IMG/VR virus record: IMGVR_UViG_3300028952_000008
Location: 1 to 13,515 of that record
DNA from: a virus
Taxonomy: Duplodnaviria; Heunggongvirae; Uroviricota; Caudoviricetes
Direction: 5' to 3' (one strand)
Length of the DNA: 13,515 bases
The notes under the pieces were generated by a model. That model was given only the letters and a program-made list of their open reading frames with translations, had not been told where the DNA came from and did no database searches. Positions 1,816-7,832 of the stretch are shown here, in pieces; position 1 is the stretch's first letter, and every line of letters starts with the position of its first letter. The position numbers and the translations under genes were made by a program.

Positions 1816-3273
1816 TTAGGAGCGCCAAAAAAAAACTGAAAACAATATAATAACAGGATAAATTTCAAGGCGACCAAGAATCATAGCTATGCACATTAAA
1901 TATTTTGCAATGTCATTAAGCACTCCGAATGACGATGCAGTAGCCCCAAAACCTAATCCCATATTATTAATACATGCAGCCACTGTTGCAAATGATGTAA
2001 GAAAATCATATCCCATACCATTTAACACCAGTATAAAAAACACCGTGAAGAGAGTATAAAGAAAAAAGAAACTCCATACAGACCTCATTACACGATCTGT
2101 AACTATCTTCCCTCCTACATTTACACTCAACAACGCTCTGGGATGAGAAAGCTGATTTATCTCGTGTTTGCTTTGTTTGAAAAGTATAAGAAATCGAAGT
2201 GACTTAATTCCACCACAAGTTGAACCTATACATCCCCCAAAGAAACTTGACAACAGCAAAAACACTATCGTGTGCGTGGGCCAGTTTGCATAATCTTGCG
2301 TAGCTAAACCATTATCAGTGAGCATGGAGCTGGCAAGAAAAAACGAATGAATAAAACTTCCATGCAAGTCATACATACCTATATGCCAGACCTGGAAAGA
2401 GGTAACAATGATCACCACTAAGGCTATTAACAGAAAGAAACGAAGTTCAATATCTCTGATTAAAGGTTTTATCGTTTTTCTGCTAATAACAATATACCAA
2501 AGAGTAAAGTTGAAAGCCGATAGCAGGGAAAAAGCACCAGCCACCAGCTCAACCAAATAGTTATTAAAATATCCGATACTCTCGCTATGAGTTGAGAAAC
2601 CACCAAGCGAAACTGTGGAAATCCCGTGACAAATAGCATCAAACAAAGGCATTCCTGCAAGTCTATAACAGACAATACAAGCAATACCTAATAAAGAATA
2701 AGTTATCCACAGTGTCCGTGACGTATCGGCCAGGCGGGGAGTGAGTTTGTCATCCTTAAATGGCCCCGGCATTTCTGACTGATAAAGCTTTGCACCACCA
2801 ATACCCAATAATGGCAATACTGCAACCGCCAGAACAATAACTCCTAAACCACCTATAAAATTTAACTGTGACCGATAGTACAAATATGCCCGAGGTAATG
2901 AACTAACATCATCAATTACAGTTGCTCCTGTTGTTGTTATTCCAGAAACCCCTTCAAACAGAGCATCAATGAACGTTAAATTAAGTTCTGAGTCAATCCA
3001 TAAAGGGAATGCACTAATAACAGAAAACAAAATCCAAAACATTACAATTATAATAAACCCATCACGGGTACGTAATTGAATGCCAGATTTCTTAGTTGTA
3101 TACCACGCTCCGCCACCAATGCAAAAAAATATAACGAAAGTTATAAAGAAAACGAACAGGCTTTTTTCTTTATAAAACAATGCTACAACCATTGGTGGCA
3201 ACATTGAAAGACTATAGAGCCAAACCAGGAACCCACACATATGAGTAACAACTCTTACATGAGATGTATTCAT
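1816..3273 (-). CDS. trkG: TrkG/TrkH-family potassium uptake protein (485 aa)
   Basis: ORF-track ORF 1816..3291 begins at a TTG; the first ATG at 3273 gives 485 aa starting MNTSHVRVVTHMCGFLVWLYSLSML.... Multi-pass membrane protein with repeated glycine-rich pore-like motifs (TTTGATV, LGGFSTHSESIGYF, NNMGLGFGAT). Visibly AT-rich compared with neighbouring phage genes. Confidence 0.88.
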   Translation of the reverse strand: MNTSHVRVVTHMCGFLVWLYSLSMLPPMVVALFYKEKSLFVFFITFVIFFCIGGGAWYTTKKSGIQLRTRDGFIIIVMFWILFSVISAFPLWIDSELNLTFIDALFEGVSGITTTGATVIDDVSSLPRAYLYYRSQLNFIGGLGVIVLAVAVLPLLGIGGAKLYQSEMPGPFKDDKLTPRLADTSRTLWITYSLLGIACIVCYRLAGMPLFDAICHGISTVSLGGFSTHSESIGYFNNYLVELVAGAFSLLSAFNFTLWYIVISRKTIKPLIRDIELRFFLLIALVVIIVTSFQVWHIGMYDLHGSFIHSFFLASSMLTDNGLATQDYANWPTHTIVFLLLSSFFGGCIGSTCGGIKSLRFLILFKQSKHEINQLSHPRALLSVNVGGKIVTDRVMRSVWSFFFLYTLFTVFFILVLNGMGYDFLTSFATVAACINNMGLGFGATASSFGVLNDIAKYLMCIAMILGRLEIYPVIILFSVFFWRS

Positions 3274-3410
3274 ATCTAAATATTCTTTCAATTATAACCA
3301 CCTTGCTGCAATATTATGATTATACTGTATAAAATTTAACTCCTCTTAGATCTTACTTCACTGTTCCTTATGAAACAATCATCAAAATGAATCATATTGT
3401 AGTTAAGATT

Positions 3411-5097: not shown

Positions 5098-5304
5098 TTA
5101 CTCTCCCCGTGCAGCCTTACGCTTATCTTCTTTAATCTTGAAATAAAGATTTGTCAGATACGTCAACAGGCCAAACACCAGACTACCCAGCACACCTATT
5201 GCTGCCCACTGTGAGGGCGTGACTCTATCGAGCAACTGTAAAAACCAGTAGCCAGCACTGCCTGCGGAGGTGCCATAGGCGACACCTGTTGTTAACTTAT
5301 CCAT
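5098..5304 (-). CDS. Class II holin, pinholin of the phage 21 S type
   Basis: 68 aa [68 protein letters not shown]: two TM segments plus a charged C-terminus, near-identical to the S21 pinholin as I recall it. An in-frame TAA two codons upstream rules out a longer antiholin form. Confidence 0.88.
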
Positions 5305-5364
5305 GGATTAAGGACCACCAGCCCAAGCTCAGGCACCAGAACAGGTCTAAGTAATACCCGCACG

Positions 5365-5637
5365 TTACCTCCAGATCCGTTGCTGGAAAGTGCGGGACGG
5401 ACGTGGTGGGCGTTCGGAATAAGGCAGCCTGACAGAGATTATCCAGTGCCGATAGTCGAGACTGAGAGCTTTCTTAACCTCGAACCCGCGCCTGCGGTAA
5501 GAATGAATCAGCCATTCGGCCTGTTCTTCAGTACATGGTGGGTGTTGGTACCAGTCGGTTTTAAATGCGTGTGAACGCCGCTCATGCCGGATGGCAAGGT
5601 CGGTATCAGAATTGTGAAATTTGGTTTTGTGCGCCAT
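5365..5637 (-). CDS. Hypothetical 90-aa basic protein immediately upstream of the holin
   Basis: ATG at 5637 with only a weak SD (AGAGAAAACAG-ATG); His/Arg-rich (MAHKTKFHNSDTDLAIRHERRSHAFKTDWYQHPP...). It sits 60 bp upstream of the holin and downstream of a strong terminator. No recognisable family. Confidence 0.4.
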   Translation of the reverse strand: MAHKTKFHNSDTDLAIRHERRSHAFKTDWYQHPPCTEEQAEWLIHSYRRRGFEVKKALSLDYRHWIISVRLPYSERPPRPSRTFQQRIWR

Positions 5638-5707
5638 CTGTTTTCTCTGCTGGCGCAGCAGGTGTCAGGTGTTCAGGCTGACGTGCGAATTGTAAACCAG
5701 AATGCCA

Positions 5708-5736
5708 GGAAAAAACAAAACCCGCCGAAGCGGGTT
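5708..5736 (-). terminator. Rho-independent terminator (hok mRNA 3' end, possibly also a late-operon tR'-like terminator)
   Basis: Minus strand reads AACCCGC-UUCG-GCGGGUU followed by UUGUUUUUUCC: a 7-bp GC-rich stem, tetraloop and U-tract, about 70 nt after the hok stop. Confidence 0.7.
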
Positions 5737-5804
5737 AAGTGCGGGTGCGTTGAGGATGCCTGACACATCAGAGGTGGCGAGGGATTTCTCCCCCGCCAGG
5801 TCTC

Positions 5805-5960
5805 TTACTCCTCAGGTTCGTAAGCTGTGAAGACAGCGACCTCCGTCTGGCCGGTTCGGATTCGTACCTCGCAGAGGTCTTTCCTCGTTACCAGTGCCGT
5901 CACTATGACGGTTAAACAGATGACGATCAGGGCGATTAACATCGCCTTTTGCTGCTTCAT
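5805..5960 (-). CDS. hok: Hok/Gef-family type I toxin (51 aa)
   Basis: Not in the ORF track (<60 aa). Hand translation: MKQQKAMLIALIVICLTVIVTALVTRKDLCEVRIRTGQTEVAVFTAYEPEE, with N-terminal TM helix and conserved C-E...R.G..EVA.F.AYE; SD AAGGAG 9 nt upstream. As I recall, near-identical to HokD/RelF and Gef. Confidence 0.9.
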   Translation of the reverse strand: MKQQKAMLIALIVICLTVIVTALVTRKDLCEVRIRTGQTEVAVFTAYEPEE

Positions 5961-6016
5961 AGCCTGCTTCTCCTTGACCTTTCGGTCCGTAAGAGGCTAA
6001 TCTCTATGTGTCGCAT
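5957..6016 (-). promoter_or_regulatory. hok leader with a translationally coupled 19-codon upstream ORF (mok-like)
   Basis: Minus-strand ATG at 6014-6016 opens MRHIEISLLRTERSRRSRL, ending in TGA that overlaps the hok ATG (ATGA). The uORF start sits in the palindrome TCTATGtgtcgCATAGA (6002-6019). Confidence 0.4.
5974..6003 (+). promoter_or_regulatory. Candidate promoter for a Sok-like antisense RNA
   Basis: Plus-strand TTGACC (5974-5979), 18-bp spacer, TAATCT (5998-6003); a transcript from about 6010 rightward would be antisense to the hok leader and uORF start region. No RNA evidence. Confidence 0.3.
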
Positions 6017-6218
6017 AGATATGGCCTCAGATTAATGTTAAGCGTCTTGCAGGACGCGTAATGTTAACTGGGGCTTTTCTCTATCTGCCTTTTGGTGTTC
6101 ATGCCTGAGACAGATAGCCTCAAGCACCCGCAGTTATTCTACTTAACTAAGATTTCCCCGCAAACCGTTTTTGTCCGGCACAGTAAATATCCAACTAAAC
6201 CAATGGCGTTCGCTGTAT

Positions 6219-6398
6219 TTACCGCCAGTATTCAATGCACATGACCGCCATGAACACCCCTAAAAAAAGGGCATTTATATGTCCAAACATTAATATCAAA
6301 ACATCAATTTTTTCCATATACCTTGCTGTGAAGATGATGGGCATACATGATGCGAACAACCAGAACGCAACAAACAAAAACTGCAATGCGTTTTTCAT
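6219..6398 (-). CDS. Hypothetical small membrane protein (59 aa) in an AT-rich island
   Basis: The ATG at 6398 (not the ORF-track start 6437) has a strong SD AGGGGGA 5 nt upstream. MKNALQFLFVAFWLFASCMPIIFTARYMEKIDVLILMFGHINALFLGVFMAVMCIEYWR has two hydrophobic segments. Surrounding sequence about 6230-6520 is markedly AT-rich. Confidence 0.5.
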   Translation of the reverse strand: MKNALQFLFVAFWLFASCMPIIFTARYMEKIDVLILMFGHINALFLGVFMAVMCIEYWR

Positions 6399-6518
6399 TA
6401 TTCCCCCTACAATCAATGTGCAATAACATTTAAACACACCTCAATTTGGCCGGACATATAAATATCTAAACCAGAAAAAATCACTTACATAGCGTTACAA
6501 ACTCTTTAGTCTAAATAT

Positions 6519-7034
6519 TCATCGTAAAACATCCTCCACGCTTATCAGTCCATTTCGTTTCAGGTAATCTATCGCCTTCTCCGGTAATTTGCAGTCCGGC
6601 TGAGCTTTTTTCAGTTGACTGACCAGTCGTTTAACCCACATTGTTAATTCGCTAACCTGATTGCCGGATGCTGGTGGATTGTCGGCTTTACCCAGAATGG
6701 CAGCGCAGCAGGCCTCTCTGAGCACCCAGTCAACAGCATCCTTCCATGCTCCTGTTTCGACTGGCGGATTCTCACGCTTTACCTGTTCATAAAAGCGCAC
6801 GGCTTTAACCAGTCCTTCTGATGTCACCGGGACTGGCGGGCCGATGAATAAGGCCTGAATTTCATAGTTCGGCCTGTCGTTACAATCCTCTTTTGTCGGT
6901 ACATATTTCCAGTCACCAGCCCACGGCTTCCCCTGAAAGTCTGTAACGTCTTTTTTCACGTAGCGATATCGCCATGCAACTGGTTTTGCCTGCCCTGCCG
7001 TTTCATGCCCTTCCTGATAATTAATCTCGCTCAT
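6519..7034 (-). CDS. Hypothetical 171-aa protein, last gene of a three-gene coupled operon
   Basis: ATG at 7034 overlaps the stop of the upstream 58-aa ORF (ATGA). Long ORF with normal composition (MSEINYQEGHETAGQAKPVAWRYRYVKKDVTDFQGKPWAGDWKYVPTKEDCNDRP...). No recognisable family. Confidence 0.7.
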   Translation of the reverse strand: MSEINYQEGHETAGQAKPVAWRYRYVKKDVTDFQGKPWAGDWKYVPTKEDCNDRPNYEIQALFIGPPVPVTSEGLVKAVRFYEQVKRENPPVETGAWKDAVDWVLREACCAAILGKADNPPASGNQVSELTMWVKRLVSQLKKAQPDCKLPEKAIDYLKRNGLISVEDVLR

Positions 7035-7388: not shown

Positions 7389-7411
7389 ACCGCCCTTTCG
7401 GGCGGCCTCCT
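7389..7411 (-). promoter_or_regulatory. SD-hairpin-start arrangement upstream of the 60-aa acidic ORF
   Basis: mRNA reads 5' CAUCAGGAGG-CCGCCC-GAAA-GGGCGG-UAGUUAA-AUG: a 6-bp GC stem with GNRA loop sits between SD and start codon (linear spacing about 23 nt, about 7 nt if folded). Confidence 0.4.
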
Positions 7412-7475
7412 GATGTTCTGAGGGTGCAGAAATCCCTCCGGTTAAGGATTAAATTTTTAACAGAGCTAAATTTAA

Positions 7476-7832
7476 TTATTCAGTTCTGGATTTTGTCGCC
7501 CTGCGTATCCGCGCTTTCGCGTTACGCTCAATCTGAATTAGCTTTTCTATATTTTTTCGCCTTTCCCGCTCCTCCTGACGCAAGAGCCTTACATCATCTG
7601 CCAGTCTGGTTTCTCTTTTCGCCACAGAGAGCATCCAGTCAAATGGCTCCACAACTGCACCGCAGATTTTACAGCGGACCTGACGCTCTTTTTCGTCAAC
7701 CCGGACAGAGGCGTGATGACAATATGGTCTTTCCGATGGCTCATAAAGAAAATTAACCTGATTACGAGGGTCATCCTCTTTTACCGGAAATAAAACGATA
7801 TTGCTTAACTCATCCTCTGGTTTTATTTCCAT
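7476..7832 (-). CDS. Hypothetical zinc-ribbon protein with a basic coiled C-terminus (118 aa)
   Basis: ATG at 7832 with strong SD GGAGAGGAG. Contains PYCHHASVRVDEKERQVRCKICG (Cys/His cluster with C-x2-C) and an Arg/Lys/Glu-rich tail LLRQEERERRKNIEKLIQIERNAKARIRRATKSRTE. Confidence 0.7.
   Translation of the reverse strand: MEIKPEDELSNIVLFPVKEDDPRNQVNFLYEPSERPYCHHASVRVDEKERQVRCKICGAVVEPFDWMLSVAKRETRLADDVRLLRQEERERRKNIEKLIQIERNAKARIRRATKSRTE

What the first reader, a model, noticed from the sequence alone, without database searches (positions are those of the whole stretch)
5805..6110. Hok/Gef type I toxin locus with coupled uORF and candidate Sok promoter, inserted upstream of the lysis genes
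A 51-aa Hok-family toxin is encoded with a canonical SD, preceded by a 19-codon uORF whose stop overlaps the hok start (ATGA) and whose own start is buried in a palindrome, and followed by a strong intrinsic terminator. On the opposite strand a reasonable sigma-70 promoter (TTGACC-18-TAATCT) would produce an RNA antisense to the leader and uORF start, as the hok/mok/sok mechanism requires. It occupies the slot where Stx phages carry their toxin cargo, so late transcription might also read into it.
Basis: partly seen in the sequence, partly recalled or inferred. Interest (0 to 1): 0.55.

Follow-up and report, generated by a model that had tools for sequence, protein, structure and literature searches.

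The report
Complete hokD-type hok/mok/sok toxin–antitoxin cassette

Summary
The minus strand carries a 51-aa Hok toxin (5805–5960; Pfam HOK_GEF E=1.2e-23). It is 100% identical to K-12 HokD/RelF and 47/51 identical to HokW. The leader matches Rfam RF01794 at 106.7 bits (gathering score 59). The 19-codon uORF (6016–5957, AUGA overlap), the hairpin over its start, the terminator (5736–5719) and the opposite-strand TTGACC-18-TAATCT are all present. The unit is larger than reported, about 6176–5711. It also has a hok promoter, a 5' tac element pairing with a 3' fbi element, and ucb/dcb boxes. Sok maps to about 6010–6078 (+) by alignment with the annotated sokW of phage 933W. The uORF is the mok equivalent. 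A net −1 indel makes it stop on the hok start instead of running on for 70 codons. This allele occurs in at least 119 public viral contigs, with hok intact in 93%, and published R1 data suggest such a truncation is harmless. The positional reading is wrong. There is no Q antiterminator in the window, and a remnant of ydfU is fused to the holin start. In relatives hok sits upstream of ydfU, rusA and Q, not in the Stx slot. Already known; low interest.

The parts
6136..6164 (-). hok promoter: −10 TAGAAT (6141–6136); −35-like TTGCGG (6163–6158, 16-nt spacer) or TTTGCG (6164–6159, 17-nt spacer)
   Evidence: Read. The block AAAAACGGTTTGCGGGG and the TAGAAT are invariant between the window, 933W and 640R1 and conserved among 69 distinct relatives. 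The generic scan did not call it. Assignment is by position relative to the conserved 5' end, so it is an inference.
5716..6129 (-). Full-length hok mRNA (about 414 nt), from the inferred start at G6129 to the terminator
   Evidence: The Rfam model begins at 6129. The terminator is at 5736–5719. Fold energy −173.3 kcal/mol, z=−8.0. Homology to relatives begins at about 6176–6141 and ends at about 5711–5717, whatever the flanks.
6118..6129 (-). tac (translational activator) element GGGUGCUUGAGG at the mRNA 5' end
   Evidence: Pairs with 5755–5743 in the full-length fold. Invariant in relatives. Can alternatively pair with ucb at almost equal energy.
6070..6076 (-). ucb / anti-SD box AAGCCCC(AG)
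   Evidence: In the full-length fold, 6074–6072 and 6070–6068 pair with the mok SD region 6024–6030. In the constrained truncated fold it pairs with tac. All 7 tac/ucb pairs are kept in 26–27 of 27 relatives.
6023..6027 (-). mok Shine-Dalgarno GAGG(C)
   Evidence: 8 nt upstream of ATG 6016. Sequestered by ucb in the full-length fold. Pairs with dcb GCCUC (5996–5992) in the truncated-form fold. Helix 5 is 100% paired in 27 relatives.
5957..6016 (-). mok-equivalent uORF: 19 codons, with TGA overlapping the hok ATG (AUGA)
   Evidence: It has the same ATG as the annotated mokW of 933W. A 2-nt deletion after the ATG and a 1-nt insertion in the GACC-GAAA-GGUC hairpin shift the frame.
6001..6022 (-). 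Variable hairpin holding the mok start; it is the target of the Sok 5' tail
   Evidence: Stem 6019–6014 / 6008–6003. Mean pairwise identity 0.72 against 0.95–0.97 for flanking leader segments among 69 distinct relatives. More than 20 variants are listed.
5805..5960 (-). hok toxin gene (51 aa), identical to K-12 HokD/RelF
5743..5755 (-). fbi (fold-back inhibition) element CCUCAACGCACCC
   Evidence: 12 base pairs with tac 6129–6118 and one bulge. Conserved in 933W and 640R1.
5719..5736 (-). Intrinsic terminator of the hok mRNA
   Evidence: AACCCGCTTCGGCGGGTT followed by TTGTTTTTTC.
5974..6003 (+). Sok promoter: TTGACC – 18 nt – TAATCT
   Evidence: Read. It is positionally homologous to TTGCCT-17-TAACCT upstream of the annotated sokW start in 933W, and to TTGCGC-17-TATCCT in an R1-type plasmid copy. 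Mutating the sokW promoter unleashes HokW toxicity (PMC8621323). Not called by the consensus scan.
6010..6078 (+). Sok antisense RNA (about 69 nt): single-stranded 5' tail, long hairpin, U-rich tail
   Evidence: Ends mapped from the 933W sokW annotation (L001 3277–3347) through alignment A1. The fold of 6008–6084 gives a hairpin plus UUUUCUCU, −31.9 kcal/mol, z=−5.1. It is fully complementary to the mok SD and start.

Best explanation
The locus at about 6176–5711 is a complete hok/mok/sok type I toxin–antitoxin cassette. It is a full-length version of E. coli hokD and a close relative of hokW–sokW. It sits in the early region of a defective Rac-like prophage.

Inferred mechanism, by homology with R1 hok/sok and hokW–sokW:
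1. A weak promoter makes a roughly 414-nt hok mRNA.
2. The full-length mRNA is locked shut because its 5' tac element pairs with the 3' fbi element, and the ucb box covers the mok Shine-Dalgarno sequence.
3. Slow 3' trimming removes fbi. Tac then pairs with ucb, and the mok ribosome-binding site is presented in a hairpin.
4. While the cassette is present, the short-lived Sok RNA from the opposite strand (about 6010–6078) binds that hairpin. This blocks mok translation and triggers RNase III cleavage.
5. When Sok supply falls, through loss of the element, transcription shut-off or prophage induction, ribosomes translate the 19-codon mok uORF. They open the hok ribosome-binding site and terminate on UGA overlapping the hok AUG.
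6. Hok is then made and depolarises the inner membrane.

What is shown here: the sequence elements, their conservation, and the alternative pairings. What is inferred: the RNA ends, processing, coupling and toxicity.
For: - Toxin: Pfam HOK_GEF E=1.2e-23. 51/51 identical to K-12 HokD and 47/51 to HokW.
- Leader: Rfam RF01794, 106.7 bits against a gathering score of 59, full model length.
- DNA identity: 91% over 440 nt to the hokW/mokW/sokW locus annotated in 933W.
- Fold elements: tac/fbi pairing and ucb/SD-mok pairing in the full-length fold, z=−8. The alternative tac/ucb plus SD-mok/dcb conformer of the 3'-trimmed RNA lies within 0.5 kcal/mol of the minimum.
- Structure conservation: that structure is 93% paired across 27 relatives against 33–51% for slid controls. 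Five pairs change on both sides, a count reached in 2 of 500 shuffles.
- Sok candidate: folds as a 5' tail plus terminator hairpin, z=−5.1.
- Experiments on the close homologue: HokW is toxic; sokW from its own promoter neutralises it; promoter mutations release toxicity; both RNAs are seen on Northern blots (PMC8621323).
- Tolerance of a short mok: in R1, only mok translation up to the hok initiation region is needed, and stops after the hok start are harmless (PMC9841398).
- Distribution of this allele: found in at least 119 IMG/VR contigs, with an intact 51-codon hok in 100 of 108 evaluable. The in-frame control allele has 108 of 114.
Against: - No expression or toxicity data exist for this exact allele.
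- The Sok −10 (TAATCT) matches the consensus at 3 of 6 positions with an 18-nt spacer, and the generic scan finds no promoter on either strand.
- The unconstrained fold of the trimmed RNA prefers a 5' hairpin and keeps the mok SD paired, so the activating refolding is not predicted outright.
- The nearest complete E. coli genome (TUM10008, 99.8% identical) has the same leader but a nonsense codon at Hok R33.
- Chromosomal hok loci tested in the literature did not mediate post-segregational killing (cited in bioRxiv 10.1101/2025.08.07.668861).
- The structure test used a structure derived from the window itself, on closely related sequences.
Confidence: 0.85

Rival explanations
1. The cassette belongs to the hok/sok family by descent but is now a silent or decaying relic. 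It persists by hitch-hiking in a defective prophage, with too little expression or activation to kill or stabilise anything.
For: - The prophage has lost ydfU–rusA–Q and its late promoter.
- The closest complete genome carries a nonsense mutation in this very hok.
- 7% of window-type loci have a broken hok.
- K-12 hokD is itself a leaderless remnant.
- The literature reports that chromosomal hokA/B/C loci could not mediate post-segregational killing.
Against: - Every regulatory element is intact in this window.
- Hok is intact in 93% of loci with this allele, similar to the in-frame control allele.
- The toxin sequence is 100% conserved across many flanking contexts.
- A single chromosomal copy of R1 hok without Sok is lethal (PMC9841398).
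- HokW, 47/51 identical, is toxic and regulated.
Confidence: 0.12
2. The main role here is not stabilisation but assistance to lysis or abortive infection. Induction, or infection by another phage, lowers Sok, and Hok then helps to permeabilise the membrane alongside the adjacent holin, endolysin and spanin genes.
For: - hokW–sokW halves Sp5 phage release when deleted, and mitomycin C lowers sokW and raises HokW in a RecA-dependent way (PMC8621323).
- hok is co-oriented with the early operon and now lies 0.5 kb upstream of the holin.
Against: - This prophage lacks Q and is unlikely to complete a lytic cycle.
- The proximity to the lysis genes is secondary to a deletion.
- hok was not enriched near defence systems in the survey cited.
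- Nothing in the sequence distinguishes this role from stabilisation. The molecular mechanism would be the same as in the best explanation.
Confidence: 0.25
3. The −1 frame change has uncoupled hok from mok. The short uORF ends before it can activate hok, so Hok is never made from this allele. Alternatively, hok is translated directly from its own strong AAGGAG, independently of Sok.
For: - Most relatives (about 66 of 80) keep a 70-codon in-frame mok.
- The hok SD AAGGAG is unpaired in the constrained truncated-form fold.
Against: - The uORF ribosome still crosses the whole hok SD region and stops at the hok AUG. [quoted passage not shown]
- The mok frame is not conserved in the family: in-frame in 933W and an IncFII R1-type copy, out-of-frame with 68 codons in Rac 442/2, and out-of-frame in published R1.
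- The allele is frequent, spans several flanking contexts, and shows no excess of hok decay.
Confidence: 0.08

Closest known systems
hokW–mokW–sokW of Stx phages 933W / Sp5 (VT2-Sakai)
   Same: - 91% DNA identity over the whole cassette, and Hok 47/51 identical.
- Same mok ATG, same tac, ucb, dcb and fbi elements, and the same Sok terminator hairpin.
- The sokW annotation maps to window 6010–6078.
[quoted passage not shown]
   Different: - mokW is a 70-codon in-frame extension of hokW, whereas here the uORF is 19 codons ending on the hok ATG.
- The hairpin around the mok start has a different sequence.
- The Sok promoter is TTGCCT-17-TAACCT there and TTGACC-18-TAATCT here.
- In 933W the cassette lies near the right prophage end after the tail genes, not in the early region.
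hokD (relF) of the Qin cryptic prophage, E. coli K-12
   Same: - Toxin 100% identical.
- 98.9% DNA identity from just upstream of the hok SD to the terminator (window 5711–5974), including fbi.
- Same neighbourhood type: hok, then ydfU and Q downstream.
   Different: K-12 hokD has relBE directly upstream and lacks the whole leader: promoter, tac, ucb, mok and the Sok gene. The window carries the complete regulated version.
hok/mok/sok (parB) of plasmid R1
   Same: - Same architecture and the same named RNA elements.
- The leader is alignable: GCUUGAGGCU…, AGCCCC, GAGGC…AUG…AGCCUCUUAC, CAAGGAGAAG…AUG.
- Same Rfam family.
- 19 mok codons precede the hok start in both.
   Different: - The Hok protein is only distantly similar. 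HokW is 44% identical to R1 Hok (PMC8621323), and the window's Hok is close to HokW.
- R1 mok runs 70 codons, overlapping hok.
- R1 is plasmid-borne with a demonstrated post-segregational killing role.

Membership tests
[quoted passage not shown] | Small hydrophobic Hok/Gef toxin (about 50 aa, one transmembrane helix, conserved Cys) | tested here: met
   Pfam PF01848 E=1.2e-23, above the cut-off. PHROG 251. Identical to K-12 HokD. NCBIfam Hok models hit below their cut-offs.
[quoted passage not shown] | Conserved structured 5' leader of the hok mRNA (Rfam RF01794, named 'sok') | tested here: met
   106.7 bits against a gathering score of 59, E=6.7e-24, model positions 1–157 of 157. The hit is on the hok-sense strand and ends at the hok AUG. 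The model therefore describes the leader whose complement contains Sok.
[quoted passage not shown] | Long-range 5' tac / 3' fbi pairing that closes the full-length mRNA | tested here: met
   12 bp between 6129–6118 and 5755–5743 in the minimum-free-energy and centroid folds, z=−8. Both elements are conserved in relatives. This is a prediction only, not probed experimentally.
[quoted passage not shown] | Alternative pairings ucb/SD-mok (closed form) and tac/ucb plus SD-mok/dcb (open form) | tested here: inconclusive
   The closed pairing is predicted. The open conformer is feasible at −144.4 against −144.9 kcal/mol, but it is not the unconstrained minimum. Its pairs are kept in relatives.
[quoted passage not shown] | mok reading frame starting about 57 nt upstream of hok and translated across the hok ribosome-binding site | tested here: met
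   ATG at −56 with a GAGG Shine-Dalgarno. The 19 codons cover the hok SD and stop on the hok AUG. The long overlap with hok is absent, but published R1 mutagenesis indicates it is dispensable. Coupling itself was not tested.
[quoted passage not shown] | Antisense Sok RNA gene (promoter, about 65–70 nt, terminator hairpin) complementary to the mok translation initiation region | tested here: inconclusive
   Positional homology to the annotated and experimentally supported sokW. Terminator-like hairpin z=−5.1. The promoter is a weak consensus match and was not called by the scan. No RNA data.
[quoted passage not shown] | Toxicity of Hok, neutralisation by Sok, and RNase III-dependent decay | not testable with these tools
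   Known only for homologues: HokW (PMC8621323) and R1 (PMC9841398).
Cargo ('moron') in the Stx slot between Q/pR' and the holin | Located downstream of the Q antiterminator gene and late promoter, and upstream of the holin | tested here: not met
   No Q in the window. In relatives hok is upstream of ydfU–rusA–Q. The deletion junction lies at 5304–5309 with a ydfU 5' remnant.

The most novel reading that the evidence does not exclude
The 19-codon uORF allele may be a natural 'minimal mok'. It would keep hok under Sok control by termination–reinitiation at AUGA, while abolishing synthesis of the N-terminally extended Mok–Hok fusion that in-frame alleles can make.

Together with the hypervariable hairpin at the mok start and Sok 5' tail (pairwise identity 0.72 against 0.95–0.97 in flanking segments), it may define one of several Sok/hok specificity types. 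Such types would let several otherwise near-identical cassettes coexist in polylysogens without cross-neutralisation.

A small hint supports this. The three genuinely distinct co-resident cassette pairs seen in IMG genomes all carry different hairpin alleles, and the two same-allele pairs are duplicate records.
Probability: 0.3. Interest if true: 0.35.

Novelty: already known. Interest (0 to 1): 0.13.

Why it matters
It matters little. The cassette is a textbook type I toxin–antitoxin system, already annotated in phage and E. coli records and experimentally studied in a 91%-identical homologue.

There are three modest points of value:
- It shows what the complete, regulated form of K-12's leaderless hokD looks like.
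- It documents that the mok frame is free to vary. In-frame 70-codon, out-of-frame 68-codon and 19-codon stop-on-start forms all occur. This is natural-variation support for the mutagenesis conclusion that only translation up to the hok start matters.
- It corrects a tempting misreading of gene order in a deleted prophage.

Tried and rejected
1. Generic sigma-70 scan of 5600–6300 found no promoter on either strand. It therefore gives no independent support for either the hok or the Sok promoter, and both rest on homology.
2. The unconstrained fold of the 3'-trimmed RNA did not give the expected open tac/ucb form. It gave the 5' hairpin instead. Only a constrained fold showed the open form to be nearly isoenergetic.
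3. I considered that the short uORF might be a sequencing error or private mutation. This is rejected: the identical 76-nt segment occurs in 11 of the 80 related loci examined and in at least 119 IMG/VR contigs.
4. I considered that the short uORF marks decaying loci. This is not supported: hok is intact in 100 of 108 loci against 108 of 114 for the control allele.
5. I considered that the 90-aa ORF 5365–5637 is Rem. It is not similar to K-12 Rem. It corresponds to unannotated DNA between rem and ydfU in K-12.
6. I looked for a Q gene anywhere between the replication genes and the holin. None was found.
7. The co-residence tally for the specificity idea is too small to conclude anything: three informative pairs.
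8. The NCBIfam Hok models hit below their cut-offs, so they were not used as evidence of subfamily.

Full report
**1. What is in the sequence**

The minus strand of 5805–5960 encodes a 51-aa peptide, MKQQKAMLIALIVICLTVIVTALVTRKDLCEVRIRTGQTEVAVFTAYEPEE.
- It matches Pfam HOK_GEF at E=1.2e-23, 82.9 bits against a cut-off of 22.
- It matches PHROG 251 'MokW-like host killing' at E=2.8e-33.
- An AAGGAG sits 9 nt upstream of the ATG.

The 19-codon uORF is real. Its ATG is at 6016–6014, and its TGA at 5959–5957 overlaps the hok ATG as AUGA (recomputed). Its start lies in a hairpin, with 6019–6014 pairing to 6008–6003.

A clean intrinsic terminator lies at 5736–5719. On the plus strand, TTGACC (5974–5979), an 18-nt spacer and TAATCT (5998–6003) are present.

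The −10 is a poor consensus match at 3 of 6 positions. The generic scan calls no promoter in the region.

**2. It is a hok/sok leader, and the unit is larger than reported**

A scan of the whole window against Rfam gives one hit: RF01794 'sok', 106.7 bits (gathering score 59), E=6.7e-24, at 5958–6129 on the minus strand, covering the full model.

The model starts at GGGUGCUUGAGG and ends at the hok AUG. What it recognises is therefore the hok mRNA leader, whose complement contains Sok.

Folding 6129–5716 as one RNA gives −173.3 kcal/mol, z=−8.0 against shuffles.
- The first 12 nt (6129–6118) pair with 5755–5743. This is the tac/fbi fold-back that defines inert full-length hok mRNA.
- The box GCCCCAG (6074–6068) covers the mok Shine-Dalgarno GAGG.

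After the 3' end is removed, the unconstrained fold prefers a 5' hairpin. That hairpin resembles the described metastable structure.

Forcing tac to pair with ucb costs only 0.5 kcal/mol (−144.4 against −144.9). It yields the published open form, with the SD-mok/dcb hairpin GAGGC…GCCUC.

On 27 relatives this structure is 93% paired, against 33–51% for slid controls. Five pairs change on both sides. The set is closely related and the structure was derived from the window, so this is supportive rather than decisive.

Upstream of 6129, a TAGAAT (6141–6136) and a conserved TTGCGG block fit a weak hok promoter.

Homology to 80 related viral loci starts at about 6176–6141 and stops at about 5711–5717, whatever lies outside. 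The cassette is thus a discrete module of about 465 bp.

**3. Sok**

Phage 933W carries annotated hokW, mokW and sokW, 91% identical to the window over 440 nt. Through the alignment, sokW maps to window 6010–6078 on the plus strand.

That RNA folds into a single-stranded 5' tail, a long hairpin and a U-rich tail (z=−5.1). It is complementary to the mok SD and start.

The promoter hexamers are positionally homologous to two others:
- TTGCCT-17-TAACCT in 933W.
- TTGCGC-17-TATCCT in an R1-type IncFII copy.

For hokW–sokW there is direct evidence (PMC8621323):
- HokW is toxic.
- sokW from its own promoter neutralises it.
- Promoter mutations release toxicity.
- Both RNAs are detected on Northern blots.
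- RNase III and Hfq contribute.

**4. The uORF is mok in a different frame state**

In 933W and phage 640R1, the same ATG opens a 70-codon frame that is in-frame with hok. In Rac from strain 442/2, mok is annotated as a 68-codon out-of-frame ORF. In published R1 coordinates mok is out of frame, yet an IncFII copy with an identical Hok has it in frame.

The window has a 2-nt deletion just after the mok ATG and a 1-nt insertion in the GACC-GAAA-GGUC hairpin. The net −1 shift makes the frame stop on the hok start.

Saturation mutagenesis of R1 concluded that mok must be translated up to the hok initiation region, and that stops after the hok start are harmless. It also notes that 19 mok codons precede hok (PMC9841398). 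The window's uORF is exactly those 19 codons.

The allele is not a private error.
- The identical 76-nt segment is found in 11 of the 80 related loci examined, in several flanking contexts.
- An exact 26-nt probe finds at least 119 IMG/VR contigs.
- Among these, 100 of 108 evaluable loci keep a 51-codon hok. A common in-frame allele has 108 of 114.

I therefore regard coupling by termination–reinitiation as likely retained. This is an inference.

**5.

The window is a Rac-like defective prophage. Reading down the minus strand, it contains:
- repressor/Cro-like helix-turn-helix genes;
- ydaT, ydaU and ydaV (DnaC-like);
- DUF1627 (ydaW), DUF977 and DUF7167 genes;
- the hok cassette and a 90-aa ORF;
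- a P21-type holin, a DUF1327 (ydfR) gene, a lysozyme and an Rz spanin;
- trkG.

There is no Q antiterminator. Against phage 640R1, homology runs from the hok side to 55 nt inside ydfU. It then resumes 4.6 kb later at the holin. The ydfU start (GTG 5363) and 18 codons run directly into the holin ATG at 5304.

In K-12 Qin, in 640R1 and in Rac 442/2 the order is hok, then rem or other small ORFs, then ydfU or its equivalents, then Q. None of 80 related loci crosses the junction.

Hok was therefore not inserted into the Stx slot. A deletion of ydfU–rusA–Q and the late promoter brought the lysis genes next to it.

**6. Closest relatives**

- The toxin is 100% identical to K-12 HokD/RelF. K-12 shares only 5711–5974, that is the hok SD, coding sequence, fbi and terminator. 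It has relBE in place of the leader. The window is the complete regulated form of hokD.
- The toxin is 47/51 identical to HokW.
- The nearest complete E. coli genome (TUM10008, 99.8%) has the identical leader but a CGA→TGA nonsense codon at R33.

**7. Verdict**

The toxin–antitoxin interpretation is supported, and the positional interpretation is not.

The system is already known, annotated and experimentally characterised in close homologues. The only mildly new aspects are the stop-on-start mok allele and the hypervariable Sok-target hairpin. The hairpin has pairwise identity 0.72, against 0.95–0.97 for neighbouring leader segments. These could reflect specificity types, and the small co-residence tally is only a hint.

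Interest is low.

Noticed in passing
window 5253–5365 (junction about 5304–5309): Deletion junction. The first 18 codons of ydfU (GTG at 5363) are fused to the start of the P21-type holin gene (ATG 5304). About 4.6 kb is missing relative to phage vB_EcoS-640R1, including ydfU, rusA, Q and a tRNA. The lysis cassette has therefore lost its antiterminator and late promoter.
   Followed up: yes
window 6001–6022 (−) and related loci L005–L084: The hairpin around the mok start and Sok 5' tail is hypervariable. There are more than 20 variants, with mean pairwise identity 0.72. The rest of the leader is 95–97% identical and Hok is 100% identical. In IMG genomes holding two distinct cassettes, all three pairs differ in this hairpin. 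This may reflect diversification of Sok/hok specificity.
   Followed up: partly
window 5820–5822 (−), Hok Tyr47 codon UAC within UACG: The Tyr codon sits in a UACGAA context like the tRNA-Arg anticodon loop. A preprint reports TadA A-to-I editing (Tyr to Cys) at the equivalent position of hokC/D/E mRNAs (bioRxiv 10.1101/2025.08.07.668861). Editing would create the second cysteine.
   Followed up: no
L004 (E. coli TUM10008) 7406–7561, equivalent to window 5805–5960: The closest complete genome (99.8% identical over 6.5 kb) has the same leader but a CGA→TGA nonsense mutation at Hok codon 33. PGAP annotates only a 32-aa fragment there.
   Followed up: yes
window 6219–6437 (−): An A+T-rich stretch just upstream of the hok promoter encodes a very hydrophobic ORF of 59–72 aa (…MKNALQFLFVAFWLFASCMPIIF…). 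It has no Pfam, PHROG or NCBIfam match. It may be a small membrane-protein cargo gene. It is shared by most loci with the window-type leader.
   Followed up: no
window 1816–3291 (−): A TrkH-family potassium transporter (Pfam TrkH E=1.5e-143), annotated trkG in TUM10008. It lies directly after the Rz spanin gene, as in the K-12 Rac prophage, and marks this element as Rac-like.
   Followed up: partly
window 6549–6760: This is the only stretch of the window that does not align with E. coli TUM10008, which is otherwise 99.4–99.8% identical. It lies inside or next to the 171-aa ORF 6519–7034 (PHROG 660, unknown function), which is annotated as frameshifted in TUM10008.
   Followed up: no
loci L022, L035, L063 (IMG/VR): A leader subtype shares the window's GACC-GAAA-GGUC hairpin but replaces the long Sok-terminator hairpin (window 6069–6028) with a shorter unrelated sequence. 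It keeps a 70-codon in-frame mok. This suggests recombination between leader segments.
   Followed up: no
window 5958–6129 (−), Rfam RF01794: The Rfam family named 'sok' matches the hok-sense strand from the mRNA 5' end to the hok AUG. A hit's strand is therefore that of hok, not of the Sok RNA. This could mislead automated annotation of Sok orientation.
   Followed up: partly
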